A DNA stretch of 64,000 nucleotides from an uncultured Eubacteriales bacterium (GTDB taxonomy: Bacteria > Bacillota > Clostridia > Oscillospirales > Acutalibacteraceae). Of the stretch, positions 2,601 through 52,516 are shown in pieces. The notes under the pieces were generated by a model. It saw only the letters and a program-made list of their open reading frames with translations. It had not been told where the DNA came from and ran no database searches. A program made the translations under genes and the position numbers. How positions within the stretch are numbered: the first letter of the stretch is position 1; the number at the start of each line of letters is the position of its first letter. The stretch spans positions 16,265 to 80,264 of the forward strand of contig OMWP01000001.1 of assembly GCA_900314795.1 (NCBI GenBank), written 5' to 3'.

Positions 2601-2970
2601 ATACTCTCCCCGTTTTGTCGGTCATCATTGATATACAGACAGTTTTGCTGTCAACGCTTATCCGTCGTATGATCCATAATAATACCCATATGTAACTGTA
2701 TTTTACATCAACAGACATTGAAATTCAATAACATATTAGAAATATAAGCGCAAAAAATTCCGCCGCAAAAGAATGATCGATCAAAGACAGCAAAGCGGCT
2801 GTTTGAAATACCGCACGGCATACAAAATGCCTAAAAATCAAGGACGGAAAAATCTCTTTTTCCTCTTTATTTTTTTCCTATTATATGGTATACTGTTCTT
2901 TATAATGGGGTGATATAGGGGTTCAACCCGATCAAACCGCATTATCACCGAATAGAAAGGAACTGATATT

Positions 2971-7312: not shown

Positions 7313-7314
7313 AA

Positions 7315-7461
7315 AGCCTTCCCCTTGAGGGGAAGGTGCTGAGCAAAGCGATGCGGATGAGGTGGAAGCGTTTCATCCTCATGCCGTAAATTGATAGAGT
7401 GGAAAGGTTTCCACCTCATCTGTCACCCAATGGGTGACACCTTCCCCTCAAGGGGAAGGCT
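7315..7461. repeat. REP/MITE-like palindromic element, family A (ends AGCCTTCCCCT..GGGGAAGG / CCTTCCCC..AGGGGAAGGCT)
   Basis: Terminal inverted repeats with nested hairpins (GGATGAGG / CCTCATC); related copies at 12642, 19468 and 24135. Confidence 0.85.
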
Positions 7462-7486
7462 ATTTAAATAAACTGAGGGAATGTAT

Positions 7487-9175
<1,689 letters not shown>

Positions 9176-9178
<3 letters not shown>

Positions 9179-9358
9179 GGAATTAGGAATTAGGAATTAG
9201 GAATGAGGAATGAATGGTGGGCTTTGCCCACACCCAATTTATAGTATCAAATAATAACGCTCGTGATTTCAAAGAGTCACGAGCGTTACTTTTATGCAGT
9301 TATTTATTCAATTTAAAAGCCGTCAGGCTTTCCCTTACTTCCTCATTCCTAATTAACC
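9176..9358. repeat. Inverted heptamer cassette: (AGGAATK)n ... (TTCCTCA/TTCCTAA) around a GGTGGGC-GCCCACACC hairpin
   Basis: Left atgaggaattaggaattaggaattaggaatgaggaatg; right cttcctcattcctaatt; lies between convergent glnS and PBP genes. Confidence 0.7.
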
Positions 9359-12440: not shown

Positions 12441-12641
12441 ACGCCTCACCTCCTGTAATCGTTGATTTCCCGCGTGTCAATTCACGCTCAAACACATCTC
12501 CCTTTCCGAAAGGGAGAGTTTTTTTCATATATGGTTAATTTTACTATACATAGCCCTAAAAGTCAAATGAAGGAACTGTGAACAATGCGGCGTTTCAGGT
12601 GCGGAATCGGTCGGTTTTTTGATGAAGAAAGGCAACACAAA

Positions 12642-12855
12642 AAGCCTTCCCCTCGGGGGGAAGGTGGGCAATTTGCCAAGACAAATTGGTCGGATGAGGG
12701 GACAACCTTTCCTATTGATGCAGGATTCGGTGAGGCTGTGTGTTTACCGAGGATGGAGGAAAAGCCTCGCGCTCTTTGTTAAGATGTTCACTCTGACAAG
12801 TCAGCCCCTCATCCGTCTCCCGTTGGTCGACACCTTCCCCCCGAGGGGAAGGCTT
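12642..12855. repeat. REP/MITE-like element family A copy (opposite orientation to the 19468 and 24135 copies)
   Basis: AAGCCTTCCCCTCGGGGGGAAGGT ... CACCTTCCCCCCGAGGGGAAGGCTT; reverse complement of the interior matches the other copies (catcttaacaaagag..cctcggtaaac). Confidence 0.85.
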
Positions 12856-36611: not shown

Positions 36612-36688
36612 CCGGGTGTGGCGCAGTTTGGTAGCGCGCTTGAATGGGGTTCAAGAGGCCGCTGGTTCGACTCCAGTCACTCGGACCA
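36612..36688 (+). tRNA. tRNA-Pro(GGG)
   Basis: Acceptor CCGGGTG/CACTCGG + ACCA; D-arm GCGCAGTTTGGTAGCGC; anticodon arm CTTGA-ATGGGGT-TCAAG; T-loop GGTTCGACTCC. Confidence 0.96.
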
Positions 36689-38499: not shown

Positions 38500-38799
38500 C
38501 ACAGCAGGAGCAGACAAACGCCTGCTCCTGCAATCATATCATTTTGTTTTCGGATAGTAACAAATCAAGAAGTCATTAAGTCGACACACCCGTCGAGGAG
38601 GTCATTATATACAGATCAAATGGGCAAATTTTACTTATTTTTCAACTAAGTTGCATATTCGTATGCAACTTTTTTTATAATTCCAGCATAAGTGTAAGCA
38701 TAATAAACCAAGTAACTAAATCAAAAAAATGACAGAAAAATCATATCTAGCAGATGTATTATTCATTTAAAGGAGTATATGTAGTTAGGAGGATAATAT

Positions 38800-38973
38800 A
38801 TGAACGGATCAGATTGTTGGGACCTTTTATACCGAGCGTATTTATTTAGTAGAATCAGTGATTCTATAGATGAAATGTTAGATATCCCAATTTTATCATA
38901 TGAAGAATTCATAGATAGATTGAAAAATGATGAAAAATATGATATCATCATAAAAAAAGTGCGAGGAGGATAG
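38800..38973 (+). CDS. 57-aa acidic small ORF, not in the ORF track
   Basis: AGGAGG RBS; MNGSDCWDLLYRAYLFSRISDSIDEMLDIPILSYEEFIDRLKNDEKYDIIIKKVRGG*; its last codons supply the GGAGGA RBS of the next gene. Confidence 0.65.
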   Translation: MNGSDCWDLLYRAYLFSRISDSIDEMLDIPILSYEEFIDRLKNDEKYDIIIKKVRGG

Positions 38974-38976
38974 TTT

Positions 38977-41082
38977 ATGCTTACTAAAAATATGTTCCGT
39001 TTGGCAATAACATTGAGCAACAGCCAAGCAGGTAAGTTTTCTTCAAACTTATACAAACTGGTAAAACTATCATTATTAGATTGTTTTCCAAATAGAGTTA
39101 CAGTCCATGATATTAGAGTAAATATTGAAGAAAACTATTCTCTCGTGTTTTCCGATGACGAAATCATTTCTTCTATCGAGAGTAAAGGTCAATCTATCCT
39201 TAAATATGAGCAGGATGAAGACCCTCTATATACAAAGTATTGCTTTTCTCCGGAAGAATATCAAAAAGAGAAAGAGAATTTGAAGGAAACAGAAAATATC
39301 GATAGTTTTATTACGCAATTTATTGATATACAAAATCAAAATAACGAAGAAAGCCTTGATTTTGATACCACAAAAGACCTTATTTATCGCTTTTTGTATT
39401 TCACCTTCAATTCAGATACCCAAACTGTTTTGGAACTGATAGATAAGAGTCGGGTGACCGATCAGACAGAATATGCTGTTGATGAGTCTTTTTCACCAGA
39501 TCAAGCAAAAATCATTAACGATTTCCTTAATTGGGATTACAATAAAAAGAATATTTTCATTCTAAATTTGATATCTGCTTGCTTTGAATACTGTATGCTT
39601 ACAGTAAAAAAAGACACATCTTCTTATGTCAGCGTGTTTAATGGAAAAAGGTTTTATCTTGATTCAAATGTAATATTCAGGTTAGCTGGATTTAATAAAA
39701 AAGAAAGACAATACACAATCGATGCGTTTATAAAAAAGTGCACTGATGCTGGAATCCAATTCTATTACACAAATCACACAAAACAAGAACTGGAAAATTC
39801 CATATCGTTTCATGTTGGTTTACTACATGGTGCTTTAAAAGCTAAAGAACCGATTGCTCCCAGAGCAGAGGAAATAATGAGTTCTAAATATGCAAATCTC
39901 AGTTTCTATGAAGAGTATTTTGATTGGTGTAAAAATCCCGGTAATATAGCTGGGGACTTTGAAGCGTTTAAGGATTATTTAGTTAAGAAGGTCAGAAAGA
40001 TTATTGCTCCTTTCAAACCAGAGATAGCCGATAATTATGAAACAGTCGATTATGAACGTTTCGATTTGATGACTAAAAGTTTTAAACAATATAAATATGA
40101 AAACGATAGAAATGCTCACGATAGTTCTATAAAAATTGATATCAATAACTATTTTCACATTTTGAAAATCAACAATGAAAAACAAGGAATCAACTTTTTA
40201 GATATCAAGAATTATTTTATTACGGCTGATCATAGTTTTACAGAATGGGCGCGGAAACAACGCCCGGGAACTGTTCCGGTTTTTGTGTTGCCCAGTGTCT
40301 GGTATTCTATCTTGCTAAAGTATAAAGGCAGAACCGATAATGATTACGCTGCTTTCTGCCAATTCCTGAATATCAGAATCGCTCCTGAAAAAGATCCACG
40401 ATTAAGCGAGAAGAATATCATGCTTGCCCATATTATGGAGTTGGACGAGCCAACTCGCATAAAGGAAGAAATAATATATGATATCCAGAAGCGTCTGGAG
40501 AAAATGGATGAAAGTTCAATAGAAAACCCCATTGAATTTGCAGAGGAATCGCACCGGTATGTTGTAACCAGAGAGGTTGAGGAAGCAACAAAAAAAGCAG
40601 AAGAAAAATGCAATGCCGAAAGTGAATTTAAAATCAATTCTCTTAAGGAACAATATGAAAAACAGAATCTGTCAGATAAAGAAACAAGCAGACAAGAAGG
40701 TTTTGATGAAGGACAAACAAAAGGATATGCGGATGGCGAAAAACATGGTTTTGACAAGGGACAATTAGATATAATCAAAAAGGAAGCCGCAGCAAAAGCC
40801 AAGAGAAACAAAAGGATTCAAGTAGTATCTATAATTTTATTTATACTCGGTTGTGTAGTGCTAATAGGAACATTGATCATTATGATAATTCCTTCGGGCA
40901 AAGACGACTCAGAAATAATAAAATGGATAAACAACAATGATGGAGTTTTAACTGTGATTTCTATCTTGTTTTCTGCTTTATTTGGTGCTATTGCTACGTT
41001 AACAAAAGTAACAACGGTTCTTTCAACAGATAAAGAAAGAATCATGGATGACATGAAAGAAAAGCATTCAATACAAGATTGA
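38977..41082 (+). CDS. Large PIN-like domain protein with coiled coil and two C-terminal TM helices (candidate defence protein)
   Basis: FYLDSNV, TKQELE, HDSSIKID and ITADH match the spacing of PIN acidic residues; two hydrophobic helices near the C-terminus; AT-rich. Confidence 0.6.
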   Translation: MLTKNMFRLAITLSNSQAGKFSSNLYKLVKLSLLDCFPNRVTVHDIRVNIEENYSLVFSDDEIISSIESKGQSILKYEQDEDPLYTKYCFSPEEYQKEKENLKETENIDSFITQFIDIQNQNNEESLDFDTTKDLIYRFLYFTFNSDTQTVLELIDKSRVTDQTEYAVDESFSPDQAKIINDFLNWDYNKKNIFILNLISACFEYCMLTVKKDTSSYVSVFNGKRFYLDSNVIFRLAGFNKKERQYTIDAFIKKCTDAGIQFYYTNHTKQELENSISFHVGLLHGALKAKEPIAPRAEEIMSSKYANLSFYEEYFDWCKNPGNIAGDFEAFKDYLVKKVRKIIAPFKPEIADNYETVDYERFDLMTKSFKQYKYENDRNAHDSSIKIDINNYFHILKINNEKQGINFLDIKNYFITADHSFTEWARKQRPGTVPVFVLPSVWYSILLKYKGRTDNDYAAFCQFLNIRIAPEKDPRLSEKNIMLAHIMELDEPTRIKEEIIYDIQKRLEKMDESSIENPIEFAEESHRYVVTREVEEATKKAEEKCNAESEFKINSLKEQYEKQNLSDKETSRQEGFDEGQTKGYADGEKHGFDKGQLDIIKKEAAAKAKRNKRIQVVSIILFILGCVVLIGTLIIMIIPSGKDDSEIIKWINNNDGVLTVISILFSALFGAIATLTKVTTVLSTDKERIMDDMKEKHSIQD

Positions 41083-41199
41083 ACACACAAAAGCGTGTAA
41101 GAGGATACCCCTCCTACACGCTCTTTTTTCTGTTCGGCACTGTCGAACAGCGGTGCGACAAGGAATGACATAAATAGAAGAGCAACTTTGGACAGTGTT

Positions 41200-41376
41200 T
41201 ATTTGTACCCCATTAAGGTGGTCGATAACAAAAACGTAGAGTATAACGGCAAAACGATGTCGCTGACAGCGTTGGCGAAGCTGCTGCCCGGGAAGAAGTA
41301 CGCCGTAGCAGACCTCCGGTTCTTTAAATACAAAAGCGAGGAAGCTCAATGACCTATGGCAGAGGCTGGGTGTGTA
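41200..41376 (+). pseudogene. Remnant of the C-terminus of a GIY-YIG/T5orf172-type nuclease gene (RAMA-like)
   Basis: Reads IKVVDNKNVEYNGKTMSLTALAKLLPGKKYAVADLRFFKYK, then a frameshift to NDLWQRLGV*; no start. Family assignment from recall. Confidence 0.45.
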
Positions 41377-41704
41377 AAGTGGTCGATTCGATATGGAAGT
41401 GGTGCCGCTGAAGAAACAGAGTAAAAAAGAACAGCGCAAACACCATGCTCTGTCGCGATTGGAACGGCTTGAAGTTGACCACGAGAGTTGTAGAAAGTAA
41501 GAAAGTCTATAACCGCAAGAAGGTGAGAAAGCCGAAAATTAATACCGTGAACCAGGCTGTGCCCTCGTAAGAGTATACAGCTTTTTGGGCTTTTTGGATT
41601 TTTGGATTCCAAATTCATCAAAGTGACTTTTATCGGACTCGTCTTGTGCGATAATGAGTACAAGGAGTAGAATTCAACCCCAAAAACCTACAAGGAGGAT
41701 CATT

Positions 41705-41860
41705 ATGTTTGACGATATTTTCGGAGGAATGTTTGATTTCAACGGCGACTGTCATACCGACTTCGCTGAGGAGGCTGTCGGCTTTGCTATCATGGAGGAT
41801 ATGATAAGCGAGAATGACAGTGAGGATGACTTCGATATCGACTCGGATGACGACTGGTAA
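41705..41860 (+). CDS. Small acidic hypothetical protein (EF-hand-like DFNGD)
   Basis: AAGGAGG RBS; MFDDIFGGMFDFNGDCHTDFAEEAVGF... Confidence 0.6.
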   Translation: MFDDIFGGMFDFNGDCHTDFAEEAVGFAIMEDMISENDSEDDFDIDSDDDW

Positions 41861-41882
41861 CGGATAACAAAAACAGAATAAG

Positions 41883-42012
41883 CCTATATAGAGTGCGCGA
41901 GGGACAAGCCCGTTGACCGCACAGCAACCTGCCGACTCTCACGACGGTAAGGTGCTAATGCTTGACCGATAGGTGAACCCGGCGCTCTTTAGGATATATC
42001 ACAAAAGGAGTG
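41883..42012 (+). ncRNA. SAM-I/IV-like riboswitch
   Basis: P1 CCTAT/ATAGG, P2 GTGCG/CGCAC, core GAGGGA..GCCC..TGA, GCAACC, AAGGTGCTAA, GCTTGACCGAT; lacks the SAM-I P4. Confidence 0.75.
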
Positions 42013-42017
42013 TCATT

Positions 42018-42284
42018 ATGAAAACAATCAAAGAGTCAGCAAACATGGGTGAGCGTGTGTATGTTCACCTCAAGGATGAAGAAACAGCGATGAGGTTTCT
42101 GCGGCAGGCAGAATCGGAGGGATTCACCTTCGGCGATGGTGTCAGCCCCACAGATCGCCATTGGTCGGATCTCTATGCGGTCCATCCCGACAGTACGCTG
42201 AACTATGTCAGCACTAACGGACGCATACACTACGGCTCCGGCGCGGATGGGATCGTAAGGATAGAATACGCAGAATTATTGTAA
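42018..42284 (+). CDS. Hypothetical protein downstream of the SAM riboswitch
   Basis: AAGGAG RBS; 88 aa; no recognised motif. Confidence 0.7.
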   Translation: MKTIKESANMGERVYVHLKDEETAMRFLRQAESEGFTFGDGVSPTDRHWSDLYAVHPDSTLNYVSTNGRIHYGSGADGIVRIEYAELL

Positions 42285-42305: not shown

Positions 42306-42809
42306 ATGAGCAATCATGATGATTTCGTTGATGACTATATCGAATACAGAATCTTTGAAGAAAGCATGAAAAGATCAGGCGGAAAGCCGCCCAGACGTAA
42401 TAGTGGATGCTGTGGCTGCAGCACATGGGCGATCCTCATAGTGGCGATTCTGATTGTACTGGGCGTGTTATGCGCCTGCGGCAAGAGCAATAAAAGTTCA
42501 TACTCTGGCTCATACCGCAGTAATGTCAGCTCGTCATACAGCAATCGTTCTTATTCATCGAGTAGCAAAAGCACATCCAGCGACTACTCTTCCGGAAGAT
42601 CATCGATCCGCTCAACCGGCACCAACTCCGCGTACAGCAACACTTCCAAATCGAAAAGCAGTTCCAAAGCCAAGCGCACATCATCCGATCCGTATGATAC
42701 TAAGTCCTATGCTCATCCGAACGATTTATACTACGATTATCCTGATGACTTTTGGGATTATGAGGATGCGGAGGAATACTGGGAAGAACATCAGGATGTT
42801 TTAGTATAG
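42306..42809 (+). CDS. Hypothetical single-TM protein with a Ser-rich linker and acidic/Tyr-rich tail
   Basis: AGGAGG RBS; hydrophobic WAILIVAILIVLGVLCAC; low-complexity Ser region. Confidence 0.65.
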   Translation: MSNHDDFVDDYIEYRIFEESMKRSGGKPPRRNSGCCGCSTWAILIVAILIVLGVLCACGKSNKSSYSGSYRSNVSSSYSNRSYSSSSKSTSSDYSSGRSSIRSTGTNSAYSNTSKSKSSSKAKRTSSDPYDTKSYAHPNDLYYDYPDDFWDYEDAEEYWEEHQDVLV

Positions 42810-42921: not shown

Positions 42922-43161
42922 ATGGCTCAGATGGATATAGAAAACATAAAACGGATTGAAAAAAATCGAAATACCATTCATGACAAGGTATATACGACAT
43001 ATACAATTTTTGAAAAAGCTGGAGAAAAGTATATTCAATTTGATACTTATGGCAGAATCGTCAGAGAGAATCCTGAAAAGATTAGTCAATCAATTCAGCT
43101 GGATCGAGAAACTGCCCAATATATCGTAAATCTTTTGATCAGAGAATTCGGATTAAAGTAA
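42922..43161 (+). CDS. Small hypothetical protein leading the MORC-Z1 operon
   Basis: AAGGAG RBS; YIQFDTYGR..ENPEKISQSIQLD; 12 bp upstream of the ATPase. Confidence 0.8.
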   Translation: MAQMDIENIKRIEKNRNTIHDKVYTTYTIFEKAGEKYIQFDTYGRIVRENPEKISQSIQLDRETAQYIVNLLIREFGLK

Positions 43162-43173
43162 CTGGAGTTTACT

Positions 43174-44640
43174 ATGAAATACGCCGATACACCGCCATAT
43201 GCACCAACACTGATGGAATCAACCCGCGCAATTGGTTATTCTATTGAGGCGGCTATTGCCGACATTATTGACAACAGCATTGCCGCAAACGCAAAAACTG
43301 TTAATATCGATTTCTTTCCAATCGGGGAAGCATATATCACTATTCTCGACGATGGGTTTGGTATGACTGAGCAAGAGCTGATTAATGCTATGAAATACGG
43401 AAGTCAAGATCCATTGCAAAAGAGAGATGTTATTGACTTAGGCCGATATGGATTAGGAATGAAAACTGCTTCCTTATCTCAGTGCAGAATACTTACGGTT
43501 ATCTCAAAGAAAAACGAAAATGTTTCAGCGGCACAATGGAATCTGGATCATATAAAAACCGCTGGAACATGGTCGCTTATTCTGTTGGACGAGAATGATA
43601 TTGCAGATTATCCTAATGTAAAAAAGTTACTGTTGCAGGATCAGGGAACCATTATCATATGGCAGGATCTCGATAAATTTGCTGTGGGAGAAAAAGATAT
43701 AGCTGAAGCGTTCAGAAAGAAAATGAACATTATCCGTGATCATCTGTCTTTAGTATTTCACAGATACCTAAGCGGTGAACAGGGAATTCAAAAGCTGGAC
43801 ATTCGCATGAACGAAAAAAGCATTCCCGTACATGATCCTTTCCTGGCAAAGAAAAGCACCCAACTCATGGATGAAGAGGTTATTACGATTCGCGGCGAAA
43901 AAGTTACTGTCAAACCATTTATTTTACCCCATGTCTCAAAACTGACAAAAGCAGAACTGAAAGCTCTGGGAGGTAAAGATGGATTAAGAAAGCAGCAAGG
44001 CTTTTATGTTTATCGCAATAAGCGCCTTTTGGTATGGGGTACGTGGTTTCGTTTGATGCGTCAAGGCGATTTATCAAAGCTTGCAAGAGTTCAAGTGGAT
44101 ATTCCCAACTCGCTTGATGATTTATGGACTTTAGACATCAAAAAATCCACTGCGACTCCGCCGGAGGATATTAAACAAAACTTATCTATTATCATAGGAA
44201 AGATCTCTGAAGGCAGCAAACGCACATGGACGTATCGCGGCAGAAAAGAAACCAGCGACAACGTCATACATATGTGGAATAGGATGATTTCCAGGAACGG
44301 AAACATCTATTATGAGATCAATCCAGATTACCCTATCATACAAGATTTATACACTGATTATCCTGAACTGCGTGAACGATTCGATATACTGCTGCAGCAA
44401 ATAGGATACACTCTCCCGCTGAACTCTCTGTATTTGGATCTGACAAATGACGAGAAGATCGAGAATGACAGCGAAAAAGATACAAAGCAGATTATCAGTA
44501 TGGTAAAAGCTATTCTTTCTGTAAGGGACGAACATACCTCTGTTGAGGAGCTACTGGAAAACCTCAAATTGGCAGAACCGTTTTGCAGCTATGCCGAAGA
44601 GATTGACGAAGCAAAAGTCCGAGGTGAATTTGATGACTGA
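43174..44640 (+). CDS. MORC/MutL-like GHKL ATPase (HATPase_c_3)
   Basis: ADIIDNSIAA (motif I), DDGFGM, GRYGLGMKTAS, GTIIIW. Confidence 0.9.
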   Translation: MKYADTPPYAPTLMESTRAIGYSIEAAIADIIDNSIAANAKTVNIDFFPIGEAYITILDDGFGMTEQELINAMKYGSQDPLQKRDVIDLGRYGLGMKTASLSQCRILTVISKKNENVSAAQWNLDHIKTAGTWSLILLDENDIADYPNVKKLLLQDQGTIIIWQDLDKFAVGEKDIAEAFRKKMNIIRDHLSLVFHRYLSGEQGIQKLDIRMNEKSIPVHDPFLAKKSTQLMDEEVITIRGEKVTVKPFILPHVSKLTKAELKALGGKDGLRKQQGFYVYRNKRLLVWGTWFRLMRQGDLSKLARVQVDIPNSLDDLWTLDIKKSTATPPEDIKQNLSIIIGKISEGSKRTWTYRGRKETSDNVIHMWNRMISRNGNIYYEINPDYPIIQDLYTDYPELRERFDILLQQIGYTLPLNSLYLDLTNDEKIENDSEKDTKQIISMVKAILSVRDEHTSVEELLENLKLAEPFCSYAEEIDEAKVRGEFDD

Positions 44641-47449
44641 CAATATGATTTTTTTGGCGGATACAGTCAGAGCGTTTTTCCTTAGGCAGGAAGAACTGCC
44701 CACGCTTGATGACATATCTAAGAAAGCAGAAGAAATGAGGACAGCTTTATCTGCACTATATCCGATCTCAGATGAAGAATTCATCAAAGTTAGGTCAGAA
44801 TTGTGGAATGACATTATCCACACAATTAACGGCAACGCCATTACTCTGCGCGGACGTGATTCTAACCACAAATCTTGGTACTACAATAGTGACAGTGATC
44901 ATTTTTATTGGAATCGGTATAAAACCTATCTGAGACAGGTGAAGCACTGGTCGGTTGATGTTGTAAACAAAATCGATCAAACTACCAATACCGTTATGGA
45001 CGATTTGGGAGATCCAAAAGACGATGCACCTTTCCAGAGAAGAGGTCTGTTGCTGGGCGATGTGCAATCCGGCAAAACAGGAACCTATACTGCTATATGC
45101 AACAAAGCATCAGATGCCGGTTATAGAGTCATTATTATCTTGGCAGGCATGATGGAGAACTTACGTGTTCAAACTCAATCGCGTCTTGACTCAGAATTTG
45201 TCGGCATTGAGAGTAAGCATACACTGGATAAAAAAGCTGACAACGAAATACGTAATCTTCCTGTAGGCGTTGGAAAAATCCCTCCTATTCAACCTGAAAA
45301 AAGGGTTGCGTGTTTTACTTCTGTTGCAACTGACTTCAACAAGAATACACTTCGTGCTCTCGGCTTGAGTCTTCGAACTCTAAATGGTACTGCTCTGTTT
45401 GTTGTAAAGAAAAATAAGAGTGTTCTGAATAATCTATACAAATGGTTAAGGGACAACAACGCCAACCACGAAACAGGACTTGTCGATTTACCTCTATTAT
45501 TAATAGATGATGAGGCGGATAATGCATCTGTAAACACCAACTCTGAAGAAAAGGATCCGACCGCAATCAATCGCGCTATTCGCAATATTCTGAACTGCTT
45601 CAAAAAAGCATCTTATTTAGGAATTACTGCGACACCGTTCGCAAATATCTTTATTGATCCTGAAGCGGAACACGATGAAGCAGCAAGAGATTTGTTCCCA
45701 AAGGATTTCCTGACAGTATTGCCTACACCTGAAAAGTATATCGGCGCATCAAAGATATTCGGCTATGGCGATGCTGATAATTGGGATAATAAAGGTGCAG
45801 ATTTGCGAGTCGAAGGTGAATACGGAGATTCTGTTATTCCTATCAAAAATGAAGAGCAACAGGATTTTTATGTTTTCAAGCATAAAAAAGAACTGGCAAA
45901 TGATTTGGTAGATATACCGCCCAGTCTAAAAGAGGCAGTTCGCTATTTTATTCTTGCAACAGCTGTTTCCGATTCCAGACTCGATGAAAAAGAGCATCGT
46001 TCCATGTTGGTGAACGTCAGCCGTTATACTATGGTACAAAATGTTACTGCAGATTTAATTGATGATTATTTGACTAAATTCAAATCTGATTTGGAAAACT
46101 ATTCGAATTTGGATATTGACAAAGCAATGCAAATCTCAGGAATAAAGGCCTTGTATTCCACTTGGGAAAAATATGATTTATCCAGCGTGTCTGCACACAA
46201 CTGGGAAGATATGTTAAAGAACTATCTAAACAAAGCAGTAAAAAGAATCAGCGTTCGTGCAGTAAACCAAAAACACGGCGCAGCTACATTGAACTATGGT
46301 GATGAAGAAGGACTAAGGGTGATCGCGGTAGGCGGCAACAGCTTGTCAAGAGGTCTCACACTGGAAGGGTTGATTGTCAGCTATTTTTATCGCAACACCA
46401 TAATGTATGATACACTGCTGCAAATGGGCAGATGGTTCGGATATCGTTTTGGCTATGAGGACCTATTTAAAATATGGATAGCAGAAGACGCTGTAGATTG
46501 GTACGGCTATATTTCTGATGCGGTGAACGAACTGAAAGATGAACTCGACGATATGAAGCGTCAGCACTTAACACCAAAGGATTTTGGTCTCAAAGTCAGG
46601 CGCGCTCCGGGAACGCTTCTCGTTACTGCCAGAAATAAAATGAGAACTGCAACGCCTGTAAACAGACCGATTACTGTTTCGGGCAGAATGCTGGAAACCC
46701 CCAGACTAAAAGCAGATCCGGATGCGCTGGAAGACAATCGATCCTTATGCTTGTCTTTTATAAAGTCGCTTTCTGCCGATAAGAGTATTAGTTATTTGTT
46801 TGATCGATATACCAGTGCACATATTTGGAAGAAAGTTCCGAAGAGTATGATTATCGAAGTTGTCAGGAGTTTTAACTCTCACCCTTGGAACTTAAACTTC
46901 CAGCCTATTGCTCTGGCAGATTATATCGATAAAGATTCTGATACCCTCGAATACTGGGATGTTGCTATTCCTGAGCCTAGGAGAAGTACAAATAGAACTA
47001 TAACGATTGAACTGTCGGAAGGGGAAATATCAGTCCATCCGGAGATTCGAAACATTAAAAAGGAAACCGAAGTCAAAAATATGTTGAAGATTAGTGATCG
47101 GCATGTTCGAGTCGGAGCCGGCGGTTGTTCAAAAATCGGGTTAGATCAAACAGAGATAGATGAAATACGTGAGCGTTGTAAACAGGATAATAAACGAATC
47201 AATGATAAAGAGTACTTGAATACAAAGAAGTATCTTGGAAAACAGCGGCATCCGATTGCTCTTATTCATGTCGTGGAAAAACGCGCCGACAATCAAGATG
47301 AAACCATTCCGCGCTATGTATACGCACTTGGATTAGGTTTTCCTGAAGATGGCATCGAGAGAACTGCAAACTATATGGTAAATATTAACGAACTGAAAAA
47401 CTGGGTAGATATAGTAGACGAGGATGATGACGATGATTACGCTGAATGA
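44633..47449 (+). CDS. Z1-domain SF2 helicase-like / endonuclease protein
   Basis: GDVQSGKT, IDDEADNAS, YLGITATPFANI, LSRGLTLEGL, DTLLQMGRWFGYR. Confidence 0.9.
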   Translation: MTDNMIFLADTVRAFFLRQEELPTLDDISKKAEEMRTALSALYPISDEEFIKVRSELWNDIIHTINGNAITLRGRDSNHKSWYYNSDSDHFYWNRYKTYLRQVKHWSVDVVNKIDQTTNTVMDDLGDPKDDAPFQRRGLLLGDVQSGKTGTYTAICNKASDAGYRVIIILAGMMENLRVQTQSRLDSEFVGIESKHTLDKKADNEIRNLPVGVGKIPPIQPEKRVACFTSVATDFNKNTLRALGLSLRTLNGTALFVVKKNKSVLNNLYKWLRDNNANHETGLVDLPLLLIDDEADNASVNTNSEEKDPTAINRAIRNILNCFKKASYLGITATPFANIFIDPEAEHDEAARDLFPKDFLTVLPTPEKYIGASKIFGYGDADNWDNKGADLRVEGEYGDSVIPIKNEEQQDFYVFKHKKELANDLVDIPPSLKEAVRYFILATAVSDSRLDEKEHRSMLVNVSRYTMVQNVTADLIDDYLTKFKSDLENYSNLDIDKAMQISGIKALYSTWEKYDLSSVSAHNWEDMLKNYLNKAVKRISVRAVNQKHGAATLNYGDEEGLRVIAVGGNSLSRGLTLEGLIVSYFYRNTIMYDTLLQMGRWFGYRFGYEDLFKIWIAEDAVDWYGYISDAVNELKDELDDMKRQHLTPKDFGLKVRRAPGTLLVTARNKMRTATPVNRPITVSGRMLETPRLKADPDALEDNRSLCLSFIKSLSADKSISYLFDRYTSAHIWKKVPKSMIIEVVRSFNSHPWNLNFQPIALADYIDKDSDTLEYWDVAIPEPRRSTNRTITIELSEGEISVHPEIRNIKKETEVKNMLKISDRHVRVGAGGCSKIGLDQTEIDEIRERCKQDNKRINDKEYLNTKKYLGKQRHPIALIHVVEKRADNQDETIPRYVYALGLGFPEDGIERTANYMVNINELKNWVDIVDEDDDDDYAE

Positions 47450-48353
47450 TTTAAAGAAAAAATGGGATTCAACTACTCCGTATTCCAATGGCTTTTTGCA
47501 GATTTCAGAAGAGCATCCTTTATCTGTCCATGTTGGATATGAAGGCGACCAGCGTTGTTTTGTTATACTTGATACTGGAAGATGGGAGAGTATCGAATCT
47601 TCCAAGGCTGTCGGCGCTGAATGCATCGAATACTCAAAAGGCAAATATGGATTAAAGTTTTTATTGAAGTATCCCTCACTGGATGAGCTGTTTATTAAAC
47701 TGTGTTGGGATTTGCTTGATTTTTCAAAATCCGAATCCAATCCTGTGCAGGCAGTATTAGATAGATATAGGAGCTGGTTGCTGCTGCTTCAAAAACAGCG
47801 GACAGGTCTGCTGTCTTTTTCGAGACAAAAAGGACTGATAGCAGAATTGATGATTTTTATTGATCAATGTGAGTATCGAGAAGTTGATGAAGTATTGTCT
47901 GCCTGGGTTGGACCCGAGGGATGTGACCAAGATTTTGTTTTTGATAATTGCTGGTATGAAATCAAGGCAACTGCAAAAGCATCCGACAGTGTTCGGATAT
48001 CATCCCTTCAACAGCTTGATAGAGCGGAATACGGCGAACTGATTGTGCTTTTTATGGATAAAGTATCCTCGGACGGAACAGGGGCTTTTTCGCTTCCTGA
48101 TGTCGTAGAGGATGTACTGCACATCCTTCCAAATCAGGCGCTGAAAGATAAGTTGGAATGCAAATTGGCAATGTACGGATACTATTATCGTGACTCGCAG
48201 AATTACCGCGATATATACTATGATCTCTCTGAGAGACGAGATTATAGAGTTGAGGATGGTTTTCCTATACTTTCCGTTCACAATGTGCCGCACGAAATTA
48301 TCGACGCTAAATACAGTATCGATTTAGCCTCCATAGATTGTTTCAAAAAATAG
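47433..48353 (+). CDS. PD-(D/E)XK motif protein (DUF4420-like)
   Basis: WVGPEGCDQDF..YEIKAT..ISSLQQL; position between Z1 and AIPR. Confidence 0.85.
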   Translation: MITLNDLKKKWDSTTPYSNGFLQISEEHPLSVHVGYEGDQRCFVILDTGRWESIESSKAVGAECIEYSKGKYGLKFLLKYPSLDELFIKLCWDLLDFSKSESNPVQAVLDRYRSWLLLLQKQRTGLLSFSRQKGLIAELMIFIDQCEYREVDEVLSAWVGPEGCDQDFVFDNCWYEIKATAKASDSVRISSLQQLDRAEYGELIVLFMDKVSSDGTGAFSLPDVVEDVLHILPNQALKDKLECKLAMYGYYYRDSQNYRDIYYDLSERRDYRVEDGFPILSVHNVPHEIIDAKYSIDLASIDCFKK

Positions 48354-48363
48354 GAGATCAGTA

Positions 48364-50442
48364 ATGGATGTTCGCGATTTTCAAAAAGATTTTTTAGAAG
48401 AAGTCAAATCATCGGCAGCAATCGATGGTGCCGGTTCAAACGCCGCTTTTGTTAATGTAGCGACTAATTACTTAATCAATGCAGAAGTATTGAGCGATTT
48501 TACGCCTGCCTTTTATGTGGGAACAGGAAAAAACAATCGCAAGCTGCGCATAGACGGATATGTTCTGGATGAGTTTGATGTAACACTTAATCTTATTATT
48601 TCTGATTATACGGGTGATGAAAATCGCGATACGCTTATTAAATCTCAAGCTATAGCTCTATTTGAAAGAATCAATTATTTTCTTGATGAGGTCTATACCG
48701 GAGCTCTGAGAAGGACAGTTGAACCAAGTACACCGGTTTTTGACCTGATTCAGTTGTTGCTAGTCAACAAAGAAAGGATACGGAAATTCAGGTACATTCT
48801 GTTAACAGACGGCATTATGAGCAGCCGTATTTCTGAATTAGATGTCCATTCTTACAACAATATCCCAATCGAATATCAGATCTGGGATATTGAACGAATC
48901 TATAAAGTTTGCTTTTCCGACTTAGGAAGGCAGGATATTGAAATAGACTTCAAATCGCTCAGCGGAGGGAAAGGAATACCGTGTCTTGAAACTACCACTG
49001 CAAACAGCGAGTATTACCAAAGCTATCTATGTATTGTTCCCGGTGAAATGCTGGCAGATCTTTATGATTCCTATGGAAGCCAATTGCTGGAAGGTAATGT
49101 ACGTTCCTTCTTGTCAACCAAAGTTGCGGTCAACAAAAAGATTAGGGAAACTATCCTGAGAATCCCGCAAAACTTTTTTGCCTATAATAATGGCGTTTCT
49201 GCAACTGTTATGGACTTAAAAGTTGAAAAAGGAGAAGATGGACGATATATTACTTATGCAAAGGACTTTCAGATAATTAACGGCGGTCAAACAACAGCAT
49301 CCCTATCAAACACACGGTTTAAGGATCATGCTGATTTGAGTTCAATTTATGTACAGATGAAACTCACAAAAGTTGATTCCGATCCGGATAAAGCAAGTGA
49401 ACTAATTAGGAATATTTCTCGTTCTTCGAATAGTCAGAATAAGGTTAGTGATGCAGATTTCTTTGCAACGCATCCTTTTCATATTCGGATGGAACAGTTG
49501 TCCCGCAGATTGTTCGCACCTGCATCCGGCGGTGCTCAGTATGAAACCAAATGGTTTTATGAGCGCGCACGCGGTCAGTACCTTCAGGCACAAATGCGCA
49601 TGACAAAATCTCAGAAGGATAAGTTTGCTGCGCAAAACCCAAAAAATCAGGTTATCACTAAGACAGATTTAGCCAAATATCGTGATACTTGGGCGGAAAT
49701 GCCTCATATCGTAAGTAAAGGAGCACAGACAAATTTCATGAAGTTTGCCGCATTAGTTGATGACCAGTGGCAAAAATCGGATATTGTTTTTAACGAGAAG
49801 TATTTCAAAGAATCTGTTGCATTAGCTATCTTATTCAAGCATACTGAATGGATAGTATCTCATCAGCCATGGTATGAAAAAGGTTATCGCGCAAATATTG
49901 TTACATATTCAATCGCTCTTTTACATCGAATGATTCGAACTCAGTTTAAAGATATGAATTTGGATCTTCAATCAATATGGACGCGTCAACAAGTTCCAGA
50001 TGCTGTAACAAATGAGTTGGTTCGTATTACAAAGTTTGTTTTTAATTCGATTACCGATCCCGGCCGCGCAACAATAAACGTAACACAATGGTGTAAACGG
50101 GATGCTTGTTGGGATTCAATAAAAAAATGCTCTATTCGTTTATCACAAAACATTCAGCGGTGCTTAACATCAAAGGAAGATAATAAAGCAGCTGAAAAAG
50201 AAGCAAAGAGTGATCAAAAGATAGCTTCTGATATGCAAGCTCAGGCAAAAGTGATAGAACTTGGTGCTGAATACTGGAAGTCGGTTGAATCCTTTGTGAA
50301 ATTAAAAAAGGTTAACGCTTCTCCCGATCAGCTTAAGGCTCTAAAATATGCAGTCAAGATTCCTGTACAGATTCCCAGTGCATATCAGAGCGTACAGCTT
50401 ATGAGGCTTCTTGAAGAAGCGAAGGCAAACGGATATAAATAA
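48364..50442 (+). CDS. AIPR-family protein (abortive infection phage resistance; ParB-like fold)
   Basis: LLEGNVRSFL, FFAYNNG, QIINGGQTTASL, SNSQNKV, WFYERARGQY. Confidence 0.92.
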   Translation: MDVRDFQKDFLEEVKSSAAIDGAGSNAAFVNVATNYLINAEVLSDFTPAFYVGTGKNNRKLRIDGYVLDEFDVTLNLIISDYTGDENRDTLIKSQAIALFERINYFLDEVYTGALRRTVEPSTPVFDLIQLLLVNKERIRKFRYILLTDGIMSSRISELDVHSYNNIPIEYQIWDIERIYKVCFSDLGRQDIEIDFKSLSGGKGIPCLETTTANSEYYQSYLCIVPGEMLADLYDSYGSQLLEGNVRSFLSTKVAVNKKIRETILRIPQNFFAYNNGVSATVMDLKVEKGEDGRYITYAKDFQIINGGQTTASLSNTRFKDHADLSSIYVQMKLTKVDSDPDKASELIRNISRSSNSQNKVSDADFFATHPFHIRMEQLSRRLFAPASGGAQYETKWFYERARGQYLQAQMRMTKSQKDKFAAQNPKNQVITKTDLAKYRDTWAEMPHIVSKGAQTNFMKFAALVDDQWQKSDIVFNEKYFKESVALAILFKHTEWIVSHQPWYEKGYRANIVTYSIALLHRMIRTQFKDMNLDLQSIWTRQQVPDAVTNELVRITKFVFNSITDPGRATINVTQWCKRDACWDSIKKCSIRLSQNIQRCLTSKEDNKAAEKEAKSDQKIASDMQAQAKVIELGAEYWKSVESFVKLKKVNASPDQLKALKYAVKIPVQIPSAYQSVQLMRLLEEAKANGYK

Positions 50443-50457
50443 AAGGGAGCTATTACA

Positions 50458-52062
50458 ATGGAAAAGTATTCAGTCGTAGACTTATTTGCCGGCGCCGGCG
50501 GATTGAGTCTGGGCTTTTTACAAACAGGAAGATTTGATATAAAAGTTGCATTTGAGAATAATCCAGATATGCAGGCTACATACAAAAAAAATCACCCAGG
50601 CGTTGAAGTGTTGGGTGATGTTTGCCAAGCGGATTACTCAGCGATGAAAGATAAATATGGAGATATTGACGTTGTGATAGGCGGACCTCCCTGTCAAGGA
50701 TTCTCCAATGCGAATCGGCAAAAGAATCATGCGGTCAGCATGAACAACATGCTGGTTAAACAATATATTCGCGCGATATTAGAATTGAATCCCAAAGCGT
50801 TTGTTATGGAAAATGTAAGCATGCTGAAATCTGATGTGCATCGTTTTTACATGACAAGAAGCGATATAGACTGTATCAGAAAATACAAAATACCGACAAA
50901 AGAAACCAGATTGCTGTTGCTTGAAAAAAAGTATCTGTTTGACGGTGCTGCAGACATCGTTTCTTCTCCATCAAAAATTGCTTCTTATCTTTGGCCGGAA
51001 GAGCACTACCAGTTGCTGAATATAATTTACAAAGCGACAAATAATGTCAAAAAGCTTAGAAAGGCATTAGTAAAGCATAAATCAGCATTATTGAAAATTG
51101 CTGACAAGCATATTAGAGATTCAAGTGATTATATCCTTTCACATGACAGCGCAGCGTTCTCTGAAGTTAAAGAATACTTCTTTACCGACGTTGCAGATGA
51201 AGATGTTTATTCTGCACAGACGATTCGTGAAAGCATTGAGTGCTCTGTTATGATTCAAAGAATGCTTGGCAAGGCACAAGAATTATTTTCCAATGATATT
51301 ATTGTTGAGGATTACAGTGAAACAGATGATCTTACGGCAGTGATAAAATCGTTTGCTGTATATGATTATCTGACTTCTATTCTTCAATCCGAAGATAACG
51401 GCTATGTCATTGATCATAAAGTATTATGTGCAGCTGATTATGGCGCCCCGCAGAAACGCAACAGATTTGTAGTAATGGGCGTTAAAAAAGAACTTGCTTC
51501 CAAGATTGCTTTGCCAAGCCCAGAATTAGATGAAGACGAATACAAAACCGTGCGAGATGCAATTGAAGATATTGAAGATGTGGAACCGGTCACTGAGGTT
51601 TCAGATGATATCGGAATTGTGCTGAATGAAAAGGATGTTGATGGTCTGGCTGGATCATTGAGAGATTCGGAACGATTGTATAATCATGTGATAACAAAGA
51701 CGACCGCGACCGCTATGGAAAGATTCAAGGCAATCAAGCAAGGAGAGAATTTCCATTCACTAGATGATGCCCTGAAAACTAATACATATACTGATGTGTC
51801 CAGAACACAGAATACGATTTATTTAAGATTGAATTATGATGAACCCAGCGGTACCGTTGTTAATGTAAGAAAATCCATGTGGATACATCCTGTAAAAAAC
51901 CGGGCTGTCAGCATAAGAGAAGCAGCCAGATTACAGACTTTCCCTGATAGTTTCATCTTCTGTGGAACAAAGGATAAACAGTATCAGCAGGTCGGCAATG
52001 CGGTTCCTCCTATTATGGCAAAGGCAATAGCAAATAAGCTTTGCCGATACTTGTCAAAATAA
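50458..52062 (+). CDS. dcm: DNA (cytosine-5)-methyltransferase with a large internal insertion
   Basis: DLFAGAGG (I), GGPPCQGFS (IV), MENV (VI), PQKRNR (VIII), REAARLQTFPD (IX), QVGNAVPP (X). Confidence 0.95.
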   Translation: MEKYSVVDLFAGAGGLSLGFLQTGRFDIKVAFENNPDMQATYKKNHPGVEVLGDVCQADYSAMKDKYGDIDVVIGGPPCQGFSNANRQKNHAVSMNNMLVKQYIRAILELNPKAFVMENVSMLKSDVHRFYMTRSDIDCIRKYKIPTKETRLLLLEKKYLFDGAADIVSSPSKIASYLWPEEHYQLLNIIYKATNNVKKLRKALVKHKSALLKIADKHIRDSSDYILSHDSAAFSEVKEYFFTDVADEDVYSAQTIRESIECSVMIQRMLGKAQELFSNDIIVEDYSETDDLTAVIKSFAVYDYLTSILQSEDNGYVIDHKVLCAADYGAPQKRNRFVVMGVKKELASKIALPSPELDEDEYKTVRDAIEDIEDVEPVTEVSDDIGIVLNEKDVDGLAGSLRDSERLYNHVITKTTATAMERFKAIKQGENFHSLDDALKTNTYTDVSRTQNTIYLRLNYDEPSGTVVNVRKSMWIHPVKNRAVSIREAARLQTFPDSFIFCGTKDKQYQQVGNAVPPIMAKAIANKLCRYLSK

Positions 52063-52105
52063 AGTTGAGAACAAATAACTATCATATTCTGAAACGAGGC
52101 AGTTC

Positions 52106-52516
52106 ATGGATAACCATGATAAAAAGACCAGAAGCTATAATATGTCTATGATCAGAAGCAAAAACACCAAACCGGAGGAACTGGTAAGGAAGTATCTGTT
52201 TTCCCATGGATTCAGATACCGAAAGAACGTCCGAACGCTACCAGGTTCTCCGGATATCGTTTTGCCTAAATATAAGACCGTCATTTTTGTGAACGGATGT
52301 TTTTGGCATAAACATGACTGTCCACGCTTTGTTTGGCCGAAAAGCAATACAGAGTACTGGAATAAAAAAATTGAAAACAATGTAAAACGTGATACAGATA
52401 ATACAGCATTACTGAAACAAGCCGGCTGGAAGGTTATCGTTGTATGGGAATGTGAGCTAAAAAAGGACATAGCAGCTGATACATTGGATTCACTGGTAAA
52501 AAGAATAAGAGTGTAA
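52106..52516 (+). CDS. vsr: Very short patch repair endonuclease
   Basis: NMSMIRSKNTKPE, GSPDIV, FVNGCFWHKHDC, NVKRD, VWEC. Confidence 0.95.
   Translation: MDNHDKKTRSYNMSMIRSKNTKPEELVRKYLFSHGFRYRKNVRTLPGSPDIVLPKYKTVIFVNGCFWHKHDCPRFVWPKSNTEYWNKKIENNVKRDTDNTALLKQAGWKVIVVWECELKKDIAADTLDSLVKRIRV

What the first reader, a model, noticed from the sequence alone, without database searches (positions are those of the whole stretch)
38800..41082. Candidate new two-gene defence module: 57-aa ORF plus membrane-anchored PIN-like nuclease
An unannotated 57-aa acidic ORF is coupled to a 701-aa AT-rich gene. The large protein has an N-terminal helical region, a central PIN-type acidic set (LDSNV / TKQELE / HD..ID / TAD), a coiled coil with GxxxG repeats (EGFDEGQTKGYADGEKHGFDKG) and two C-terminal TM helices. 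PIN RNases are established toxin and anti-phage effectors. I do not recognise a membrane-tethered PIN with a tiny upstream partner as a named system. It has its own terminators on both sides (~38649-38678, ~41089-41130), so it is a discrete unit in a defence island.
Basis: inference. Interest (0 to 1): 0.7.

Follow-up and report, generated by a model that had tools for sequence, protein, structure and literature searches.

The report
Membrane-anchored PIN nuclease with small partner
A discrete two-gene operon on a mobile defence island encodes a conserved ~55-residue protein and a 701-residue protein with a predicted DNA/RNA-binding head, PIN-type nuclease core and membrane anchor. It belongs to a large, unnamed, horizontally spread family that often sits inside restriction-modification operons, so it is a credible but untested anti-phage or anti-plasmid module.

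Summary
Both ORFs are at the stated coordinates, each has a strong ribosome-binding site, and terminators flank the pair.

The large protein L matches no Pfam, NCBIfam, PADLOC or PHROG family. It has about 500 relatives (50%-identity clusters) of the same length in Bacillota and Bacteroidota.

AlphaFold models (pLDDT 83-84) show a winged helix, a helical domain, a PIN-like core, a coiled coil and a C-terminal hairpin of two membrane helices. Foldseek's best hits are nearly all PIN proteins (PAE2754, VapC, FitB), though E-values are only about 0.01. D229, E271, D388 and D418 are invariant in 63 relatives that fall to about 25% identity.

The small protein S is a real family of 75 clusters under purifying selection. 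It lay directly upstream of an L gene in every context examined. It occurs only in part of the Bacillota branch, so it is an accessory partner, not a universal antitoxin.

Sixteen of 63 relatives lie co-oriented inside or beside type I restriction operons. Others lie next to Gabija-like genes, GmrSD, AIPR or SIR2/KAP genes, or on serine-recombinase elements. Only 1 of 151 genomes in the host's taxonomic family carries the gene.

The defence role is inferred, not shown. The GxxxG run is peculiar to this copy. I score it a new variant of a known kind, interest about 0.6.

The parts
38648..38678 (+). Intrinsic terminator closing the upstream unit (ParB-like/TnpV). It marks the left edge of the module.
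   Evidence: Scan hit. The fold has -10.6 kcal/mol, z -5.7, and is followed by U7.
38787..38792 (+). Ribosome-binding site AGGAGG of the small gene S, 7 nt before the ATG.
   Evidence: Read directly from the sequence.
38800..38973 (+). S: a 57-aa protein with the conserved core LYxAYLL-x(5-6)-D.ID..ID.P.LS[YF]EEF and no known domain.
   Evidence: ORF. 75 homologous clusters. It was directly upstream of an L homologue in every context checked. pN/pS 0.24-0.42. No relation to Pfam or PDB entries.
38963..38969 (+). Ribosome-binding site GAGGAGG of L, lying inside the 3' end of S. The S stop and the L start are 3 nt apart, which suggests translational coupling.
   Evidence: Sequence. In relatives the gaps are 11-43 nt or a 14-nt overlap.
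38977..39288 (+). L residues 1-104: winged-helix (wHTH) domain, a putative nucleic-acid-binding head.
   Evidence: AF2 secondary structure is H-H-H-H-beta-beta. Foldseek hits to I73R Z-alpha, PadR, MarR and SarX have prob 0.9-1.0 and TMt 0.5-0.8.
39298..39639 (+). L residues 108-221: all-helical domain with no structural match. It contains the invariant residues F183, W186 and K191.
39640..40386 (+). L residues 222-470: PIN-like nuclease core with long helical inserts. The putative catalytic residues are D229, E271, D388 and D418 (D456 is also invariant).
   Evidence: Domain model has pLDDT 83.8 and pTM 0.81. Foldseek PDB hits are PAE2754, VapC, FitB, HARP, PRORP and Exo1. The family profile hits PDB chain 9z7o_C, named 'Escherichia VapC', at E 0.0034. 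The acidic residues are invariant in 63 sequences.
40402..40776 (+). L residues 476-600: helical region and long coiled-coil stalk. It includes a GxxxG x5 run (aa 574-595, nt 40696-40761) that is specific to this copy.
   Evidence: Helices 518-573 and 585-637 in the AF2 model, with pLDDT below 50 at 571-592. Weak FliH and Yae1_N matches. The GxxxG run occurs in 2 of 63 relatives.
40816..40890 (+). TM helix 1 (aa 614-638), preceded by the basic stretch KKEAAAKAKRNKR. This predicts that the N-terminal 610 residues are cytoplasmic.
   Evidence: Kyte-Doolittle peak up to 3.2. Conserved across the family.
40945..41004 (+). TM helix 2 (aa 657-676). It follows a loop of about 18 residues with net negative charge, and is followed by a short cytoplasmic tail.
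   Evidence: Two hydrophobic peaks about 45 residues apart appear in most relatives.
41092..41129 (+). Intrinsic terminator closing the S-L operon.
   Evidence: Fold of -18.3 kcal/mol, z -5.5, followed by a U6 run.

Best explanation
S and L form one operon carried as cargo on a mobile defence island.

L is predicted to sit at the cytoplasmic face of the membrane. A C-terminal two-helix hairpin anchors it, and a coiled-coil stalk probably pairs or oligomerises it. An N-terminal winged helix and a catalytically intact PIN-like (VapC-type) nuclease core face the cytoplasm.

The most likely role is an innate-immunity effector against phages or incoming mobile DNA. The head binds nucleic acid and the PIN core cuts it. 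The target could be invader nucleic acid near its entry point (spatial self/non-self discrimination, as in SNIPE). Alternatively it could be cellular or viral RNA, giving growth arrest as with VapC.

S is a cognate partner specific to one clade and is translationally coupled to L. It most likely holds L inactive or tunes its activation. It is not a universal antitoxin.

Shown here: gene structure, conservation, predicted fold, conserved active-site residues, conserved membrane hairpin, linkage of S to L, and genomic association with defence genes and mobile elements.

Inferred: nuclease activity, substrate, membrane localisation, S-L binding and the defence phenotype.
For: - Operon anatomy.
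- Family size and uniform length.
- PIN fold: AF2 models; Foldseek hits almost only to PIN-superfamily proteins at prob 1.0 and TMt about 0.6; the family profile hits a solved VapC at E 0.0034; weak PIN_12 and PIN_8 hits and a local hhalign match over beta1 to alpha3.
- D229, E271, D388 and D418 are invariant across 63 sequences from several phyla at about 25% identity.
- The TM hairpin is conserved across the family.
- S is conserved, under purifying selection and adjacent to L in every context checked.
- Defence context: 16 of 63 loci lie inside or next to type I R-M operons, often with overlapping stop and start codons. Other neighbours are OLD/UvrD (Gabija-like), GmrSD, AIPR and KAP plus SIR2.
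- The window itself carries MzaBCDE, Dcm/Vsr, SRA and a BnzB-like gene.
- Patchy distribution: 1 of 151 genomes of the same taxonomic family. The tree shows cross-phylum transfers.
Against: - There are no experimental data and no RNA evidence.
- Foldseek E-values are only 0.01-0.5, and no Pfam PIN model reaches threshold. hhalign against PIN_12 gives prob 16%.
- S is absent from most of the family, so its role cannot be essential to L in general.
- In this window the module sits next to ParB-like and TnpV genes, not next to R-M, so a maintenance role for the mobile element is possible.
- Rearranged remnants lacking S exist in other rumen samples, so the module is dispensable.
- The nucleic-acid substrate is unknown.
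Confidence: 0.6

Rival explanations
1. This is a toxin-antitoxin (addiction) pair that stabilises the mobile element. S is a labile antitoxin that blocks the PIN toxin L, and loss of the element frees L and kills the cell. Defence would be at most a side effect.
For: The gene order (small gene first, PIN gene second) and the tight coupling resemble VapBC. The pair rides on serine-recombinase elements and lies next to ParB/TnpV genes. PIN toxins are the classic type II toxins (PMC5499597).
Against: S has no DNA-binding domain and no similarity to any antitoxin. Most L relatives have no S at all, standing alone or inside R-M operons. L is a 701-aa multidomain membrane protein, not a 130-aa toxin. 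Remnants that keep the 3' part of L but lack S persist in other samples.
Confidence: 0.2
2. L is a guardian of restriction-modification, as PrrC is. R-M holds it latent, and phage anti-restriction proteins switch it on. In the S-bearing clade, S replaces R-M as the latch.
For: 16 of 63 relatives lie between or after hsdM/hsdS/hsdR in the PrrC position, several with 4-nt overlaps to hsdS. The PrrC paradigm is described in PMC12707154. PIN genes coupled to type I R-M were noted in PMC5499597.
Against: About three quarters of the loci, including this window, have no adjacent R-M. The only type I R-M genes found in this genome are on another contig. Embedding is scattered over the tree. That pattern suits a self-contained cassette that R-M operons pick up ('guilt by embedding', 10.1101/2024.01.29.577857). 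L has no ABC-ATPase or HEPN module.
Confidence: 0.12
3. L serves the mobile element itself, for example in entry exclusion or in processing transferred DNA at the membrane. It would not be immunity against phages.
For: Membrane anchoring plus a nucleic-acid-binding head would suit action on DNA crossing the membrane. The location is beside ParB-like/TnpV genes and on serine-recombinase elements.
Against: The family is just as common in chromosomal R-M operons of Bacteroidota that have no transfer genes nearby. Across the 65 loci, no conjugation genes recur among the neighbours.
Confidence: 0.08
4. The PIN-like core is catalytically dead or is not a PIN at all. L would be a membrane scaffold or sensor, and the hairpin or coiled coil would be the effector.
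For: Structural and profile matches are weak (E about 0.01). No Pfam model hits the window protein.
Against: Four acidic residues at the canonical PIN positions are invariant over 63 very divergent sequences. The top hits from two structure libraries are PIN proteins.
Confidence: 0.07

Closest known systems
VapC-group PIN-like nucleases (PIN domain-like superfamily, Matelska et al. 2017, PMC5499597). The nearest Pfam models are PIN_12/DUF4935 (PF16289) and PIN_8.
   Same: The predicted alpha/beta/alpha fold has an acidic tetrad at the end of beta1, in the helix after beta2, in the helix after beta3, and just after beta4. There are long helical inserts after strand 2, as described for DUF4935. 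Some PIN genes are also coupled to type I R-M operons.
   Different: No Pfam PIN model reaches threshold. L is 701 aa and carries a wHTH head, an extra helical domain, a coiled coil and a C-terminal membrane hairpin. DUF4935 proteins are soluble, about 350 aa, and mostly monocistronic.
[quoted passage not shown] 2026, PMC13190303)
   Same: The concept is a single large protein tethered to the inner membrane, with a nucleic-acid-binding part and a nuclease. This would allow invader nucleic acid to be recognised by where it is.
   Different: SNIPE has an N-terminal anchor, a DUF4041 domain and a GIY-YIG nuclease. L has a C-terminal hairpin, a wHTH and a PIN-like core. There is no sequence or fold relationship. 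For L, localisation and DNA cleavage are untested.
PrrC/RloC anticodon nucleases embedded in type I R-M loci (PMC12707154)
   Same: Many family members occupy the same slot between hsdS and hsdR. All are accessory nucleases linked to R-M.
   Different: PrrC is a soluble ABC-ATPase plus HEPN-type RNase. L is unrelated in fold, is membrane-anchored and is mostly found outside R-M operons. This window's copy is not R-M-linked.
VapBC type II toxin-antitoxin modules
   Same: A small upstream gene is translationally coupled to a PIN-type nuclease gene, and the pair is carried on mobile elements.
   Different: S has no DNA-binding fold or antitoxin motif and is missing from most of the family. L is five times the size of a VapC toxin and is membrane-anchored.
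PIN-TRAM membrane proteins (PIN.COG4956, PMC5499597)
   Same: They are PIN domains attached to transmembrane helices, so a membrane-tethered PIN is not new in itself.
   Different: COG4956 proteins have four N-terminal TM helices and a TRAM domain (PMC5499597). From my own knowledge, unchecked here, the group includes YacL and is conserved rather than island-borne cargo. L has none of these features. It is patchy, horizontally transferred and linked to defence genes.
PIN-containing defence systems validated recently: DS-3 and DS-5 (DefensePredictor, PMC13092281) and HEC-03 (Payne et al. 2024, 10.1101/2024.01.29.577857)
   Same: In DS-3 and DS-5 a PIN nuclease is the catalytic effector and its active-site residues are required for defence. 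DS-5 is a two-gene system whose partner is needed for defence but is not an antitoxin.
   Different: Their partners differ (ABC ATPase; DUF5830/AcrIF4-like protein), and they lack both a membrane anchor and a wHTH. No sequence similarity was detected through PADLOC v2. DS-3 and DS-5 models were not available to test.

Membership tests
PIN domain-like superfamily (VapC group) | Three-layer alpha/beta/alpha fold with a central parallel beta-sheet | tested here: met
   The AF2 domain model has pLDDT 83.8 and pTM 0.81. The top Foldseek PDB hits are PAE2754 (E 0.012, prob 1.00, TMt 0.62), VapC 5ecw_A (TMt 0.64), FitB and HARP. The top BFVD hit is 'PIN like domain' at prob 1.00. This rests on a predicted structure, and the E-values are modest.
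PIN domain-like superfamily (VapC group) | Three to four conserved acidic residues forming the metal-binding site | tested here: met
   D229, E271, D388 and D418 are invariant in 63 of 63 relatives. They sit at the end of beta1, in the helix after beta2, in a helix after beta3, and right after beta4.
PIN domain-like superfamily (VapC group) | Significant match to a curated PIN-clan sequence model | tested here: inconclusive
   The window protein has no Pfam hit. PIN_12 hits 2 of 60 members (best E 0.0023) and PIN_8 hits 1. hhalign against PIN_12 gives P 0.0016 and prob 16%. The family profile against PDB 'Escherichia VapC' gives E 0.0034.
PIN domain-like superfamily (VapC group) | Metal-dependent nuclease activity | not testable with these tools
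   Needs biochemistry.
VapBC type II toxin-antitoxin | Antitoxin with a DNA-binding domain (AbrB/RHH/HTH/PhD) and a toxin-binding tail | tested here: not met
   S (57 aa) and its family show no Pfam or PDB similarity.
VapBC type II toxin-antitoxin | Obligate pairing of toxin and antitoxin across the family | tested here: not met
   S homologues were found upstream of only 4 of 63 species-representative loci, plus the close clade.
PrrC-like R-M guardians | Gene embedded in a type I R-M operon | tested here: not met
   It is not met for this locus: no R-M genes are adjacent, and the genome's hsdM/hsdR are on contig C25. It is met for 16 of 63 relatives.
PrrC-like R-M guardians | ABC-ATPase N-domain plus HEPN-type anticodon nuclease domain | tested here: not met
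   No such domains appear in Pfam or NCBIfam scans or in the AF2 model.
SNIPE | DUF4041 plus a GIY-YIG nuclease with an N-terminal membrane anchor | tested here: not met
   No Pfam hit. The anchor is C-terminal. The domain description of SNIPE comes from PMC13190303.
MZA system (neighbouring genes) | Belongs to the MzaA-E operon | tested here: not met
   MzaB-E are at 43174-50442. S-L is separated from them by its own terminator, about 2 kb and a SAM riboswitch. S-L also occurs elsewhere without Mza.
Any system or candidate in PADLOC-DB v2.0.0 | HMM match | tested here: not met
   There were no hits for S or L and no meaningful hit for 55 family members.

The most novel reading that the evidence does not exclude
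The L family would be a new, widespread class of membrane-tethered PIN nucleases. It would provide immunity by cutting invader nucleic acid at or near the membrane entry site, telling self from non-self by location as SNIPE does but with an unrelated fold. It would work as a self-contained cassette that type I R-M operons and mobile elements repeatedly capture. In the Clostridia clade, the ~55-residue S protein would be a new kind of latch or sensor that gates the nuclease without being a classical antitoxin.
Probability: 0.25. Interest if true: 0.8.

Novelty: new variant of a known kind. Interest (0 to 1): 0.6.

Why it matters
If it is confirmed, about 500 sequence clusters of currently 'hypothetical' proteins in gut, rumen and environmental Bacillota and Bacteroidota would gain a function. 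A second, unrelated example of a membrane-anchored antiviral nuclease would exist alongside SNIPE. The S-bearing and S-less branches also offer a natural comparison for asking how a large PIN nuclease is kept harmless to its host. Finally, this would add a concrete, testable member to the set of genes implicated in defence by being embedded in type I R-M operons.

Tried and rejected
- Pfam, NCBIfam, PADLOC and PHROG scans of S and L gave nothing meaningful. The weak FliH and Yae1_N hits come only from the copy-specific GxxxG run.
- Sequence searches of PDB with L alone or with the full-length profile found nothing. Only the domain profile reached a VapC.
- tblastn found no phage records and only three weak plasmid hits annotated as hypothetical.
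- hhalign against a PIN_12 alignment built here from seven genomes gave only a local match of low probability.
- No RNA-seq runs hold the stretch, so co-transcription could not be checked.
- The empty site could not be found in relatives. The species representatives are too divergent (about 67% identity) and synteny is lost.
- A search for island recombinases found none in the window. The nearest serine-recombinase-like gene on the contig is about 42 kb past the window end.
- S was tested as a split-off piece of L and rejected, because the S profile has no consistent match in any L protein.
- Read-through fusion was rejected. S and L are in frame here (TAG TTT ATG), but relatives have gaps of 11-43 nt or a 14-nt overlap, so the shared frame is chance.
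- An S-L fusion fold was not attempted, because the tool returns no contact or PAE data to judge an interface.
Full report
**Observation.** Each has a strong Shine-Dalgarno sequence 7 nt before its ATG: AGGAGG at 38787-38792 and GAGGAGG at 38963-38969. The second lies inside the end of S, and only 3 nt separate the S stop from the L start. GC is 32-35% here against about 54% in the chromosomal part of the window. Terminator hairpins flank the pair. The one at 38648-38671 plus U7 has -10.6 kcal/mol (z -5.7). The one at 41092-41122 plus a U6 run has -18.3 kcal/mol (z -5.5). So are two C-terminal hydrophobic segments at about aa 614-638 and 657-676.

**The large protein belongs to a big unnamed family.** L matches no Pfam, NCBIfam, PADLOC or PHROG model. 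A word-seeded search found 137 relatives, nearly all 650-720 aa, with no Pfam domains and named 'hypothetical' where named at all. An exhaustive HMMER search of 1.84 billion representatives found 497 clusters at 50% identity with E<=1e-3, of which 396 have E<=1e-10. In species-representative genomes, 65 loci encode a relative. Most are in Bacillota and Bacteroidota, with a few in Ignavibacteriota, Chlorobiota and a Treponema. Only 1 of 151 genomes from the host's own taxonomic family carries it. The maximum-likelihood tree shows transfers between phyla. No phage record holds it, and only three plasmids carry weak hits.

**Fold.** The full-length AlphaFold2 model (60-sequence alignment, pLDDT 82.9, pTM 0.69) contains six parts:
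- a winged helix (aa 1-104);
- a helical domain (108-221);
- an alpha/beta core (222-470);
- further helices;
- a long coiled coil (518-600);
- two membrane-length helices.

A separate model of aa 172-475 has pLDDT 83.8 and pTM 0.81.

Foldseek against the PDB returns almost only PIN-superfamily proteins at the top. These are PAE2754 (E 0.012, prob 1.00, TMt 0.62), PAE0151, FitB, VapC (TMt 0.64), HARP/PRORP and Exo1/FEN1. The best viral-library hit is annotated 'PIN like domain'. The N-terminus matches winged-helix proteins such as I73R Z-alpha, PadR and MarR.

Sequence-level support is weaker but points the same way:
- The domain profile hits a solved 'Escherichia VapC' (9z7o_C) at E 0.0034, across beta1 to alpha3.
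- PIN_12 and PIN_8 give sub-threshold hits in 3 of 60 members.
- hhalign against a PIN_12 alignment built here aligns the same motifs, at only 16% probability.

The strongest argument for an active enzyme is conservation. D229, E271, D388 and D418 are invariant in all 63 aligned relatives, whose identity falls to about 25%. They sit at the canonical PIN positions.

The membrane hairpin is conserved across the family. The basic stretch before TM1 and the acidic loop between the helices predict an N-in/C-in topology, which puts the nuclease in the cytoplasm. The GxxxG run at aa 574-595 is modelled with low confidence and occurs in only 2 of 63 relatives. It is not a family feature.

**The small protein is real but clade-restricted.** A profile of S-like ORFs finds 75 clusters (43-87 aa) sharing the core LYxAYLL...D.ID..ID.P.LS[YF]EEF. 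In every context I opened, an L homologue followed directly, with gaps of 11-43 nt or a 14-nt overlap. This held whether I started from L homologues or from S homologues. In one case the L gene had been truncated by a Tn916-like insertion. Close pairs give pN/pS of 0.24 and 0.42.

S has no detectable relation to any Pfam family or solved structure, and it is not a split-off fragment of L. Its acidity is not conserved: the family pI ranges from 4.1 to 10.1.

Among the 63 species-representative loci, only four have an S homologue (L001, L005, L028 and, weakly, L060), and none is in Bacteroidota. On the tree, S-bearing genes form one clade of nine. L060 and the basal L028 also carry it, which suggests an old association within the Bacillota branch followed by losses. 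S is therefore a cognate accessory partner, not a universal antitoxin.

**Genomic context.** The module sits in an AT-rich mosaic island downstream of tRNA-Pro (36612-36688). It follows a ParB-like gene and TnpV. Downstream come:
- a SAM riboswitch (41881-41975, 58.3 bits);
- MzaB/C/D/E with a Dcm methylase and Vsr;
- an SRA-domain protein;
- a BnzB-like 977-aa protein.

Among relatives, 16 of 63 loci have the gene co-oriented inside or directly after a type I R-M operon (hsdM-hsdS-L-hsdR and variants), several with 4-nt overlaps to hsdS. One locus reads hsdM-hsdS-KAP NTPase-L-SIR2-hsdR. Other neighbours are OLD-TOPRIM/UvrD (Gabija-like), GmrSD, AIPR, an hsdS shufflon and large serine recombinases. 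The same S-L pair appears next to the same recombinase genes in different chromosomal settings, so it travels as cargo. This genome's only type I R-M genes are on another contig.

**Mechanism.** The anatomy supports a membrane-anchored, probably oligomeric protein with a nucleic-acid-binding head and an intact PIN active site facing the cytoplasm. The context supports a role in immunity against phages or other incoming DNA. Two modes are possible:
- It cuts invader nucleic acid near the entry site, as the unrelated SNIPE does (PMC13190303).
- It cleaves RNA and arrests growth, as VapC does.

I cannot tell DNA from RNA as the substrate. The fold is closer to VapC-type RNases, while the membrane tether and winged helix fit either. 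Because most relatives lack S, L must be kept harmless in some other way, such as auto-inhibition or sequestration. S then most plausibly adds a latch or a trigger in its clade. DS-5 offers a comparison, since its PIN partner is required for defence but is not an antitoxin (PMC13092281). Every step from 'nuclease activity' onward is inference.

**Comparison with known systems.**
- L passes the structural and active-site tests for the PIN-like superfamily but not the curated sequence-model test.
- It fails the defining features of VapBC (no DNA-binding antitoxin, no obligate pairing, wrong size).
- It fails those of PrrC/RloC (no ABC-ATPase or HEPN domain, and this copy is not R-M-embedded).
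- It fails those of SNIPE (different domains, anchor at the other end).
- It is not part of the Mza operon next door.
- PADLOC-DB v2.0.0, which includes candidate systems, matches none of 55 family members.
- Membrane-tethered PIN proteins do exist (PIN-TRAM COG4956, PMC5499597), but with four N-terminal TM helices and a TRAM domain.

**Earlier notes of this scan.** Several follow-ups on other genomes describe what is evidently the same L family as an R-M-embedded, membrane-anchored wHTH-PIN nuclease. These are AI notes, not independent evidence. I reached the same fold and context before reading them. None of the notes listed mentions the S partner, which is what this locus adds.

**Other observations.** DNA metagenomes from cattle and sheep guts hold the module identically. 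Two studies hold a rearranged remnant in which the reverse complement of 38981-39684 is joined to 40112 and S is missing, so the module can decay. No RNA data exist for it.

**Verdict.** This is a real, discrete S-L operon. It encodes a new architecture of PIN-like nuclease from a large unnamed family linked to defence genes, together with a clade-specific small partner. I put confidence in a defence-type function at about 0.6. Novelty: new variant of a known kind. Interest: 0.6.

Noticed in passing
window 41881-41975 (+), upstream of ORFs 41973-42284 and 42306-42809: A SAM-I riboswitch (RF00162, 58.3 bits against a gathering score of 44.4, E 8e-12) precedes two small proteins of unknown function. 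It lies just upstream of the Mza/Dcm defence operon on the mobile island. This is an unusual target for a SAM riboswitch. It could link expression to SAM levels, which some phages deplete.
   Followed up: partly
window 38981-39684 and 40112-41912, in metagenome runs X7 and X8: Contigs from two independent sheep/rumen studies join the reverse complement of 38981-39684 directly to 40112. They lack 39685-40111 and the S gene. This is a rearranged, inactivated remnant of the L gene in other strains.
   Followed up: partly
window 38971-38979: S and L are in the same reading frame, separated only by TAG TTT. Read-through of one stop codon would fuse them. Relatives have other spacings, so this looks like chance.
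   Followed up: yes
window 42922-52516: An Mza-type system: MzaB 43174-44640, MzaC/Z1 44543-47449, MzaD/DUF4420 47424-48353 and MzaE/AIPR 48364-50442. A Dcm C5-methylase (50458-52062) and Vsr (52106-52516) follow. A 79-aa ORF (42922-43161) in front could be MzaA.
   Followed up: partly
window 55063-57996 (+): A 977-aa AT-rich gene has no Pfam hit. Residues 26-388 match the PADLOC BnzB (Bunzi) model at E 6.5e-49. It is a possible stand-alone or degenerate Bunzi-like defence gene.
   Followed up: no
L029 (Paenimyroides tangerinum CP158859.1), locus coordinates 45-12726: A type I R-M operon carries three embedded genes in a row: hsdM, hsdS, a KAP-family NTPase (1058 aa), the L homologue, a SIR2_2 protein (504 aa), then hsdR.
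   Followed up: partly
L082, locus coordinates 4001-5901: S is intact, but the L homologue is cut to 125 aa by insertion of a Tn916-like element (tyrosine integrase, Xis, PemK toxin).
   Followed up: no
L068/L069, locus coordinates 1-4600: The S-L pair lies immediately after a type I hsdS shufflon (three hsdS genes or fragments plus a tyrosine recombinase). S-bearing copies can therefore also be R-M-adjacent.
   Followed up: no
window 41706-41860 (+): A small, very acidic ORF (MFDDIFGGMFDFNGD...DDW) with a good ribosome-binding site lies between the S-L terminator and the SAM riboswitch. Its function is unknown.
   Followed up: no
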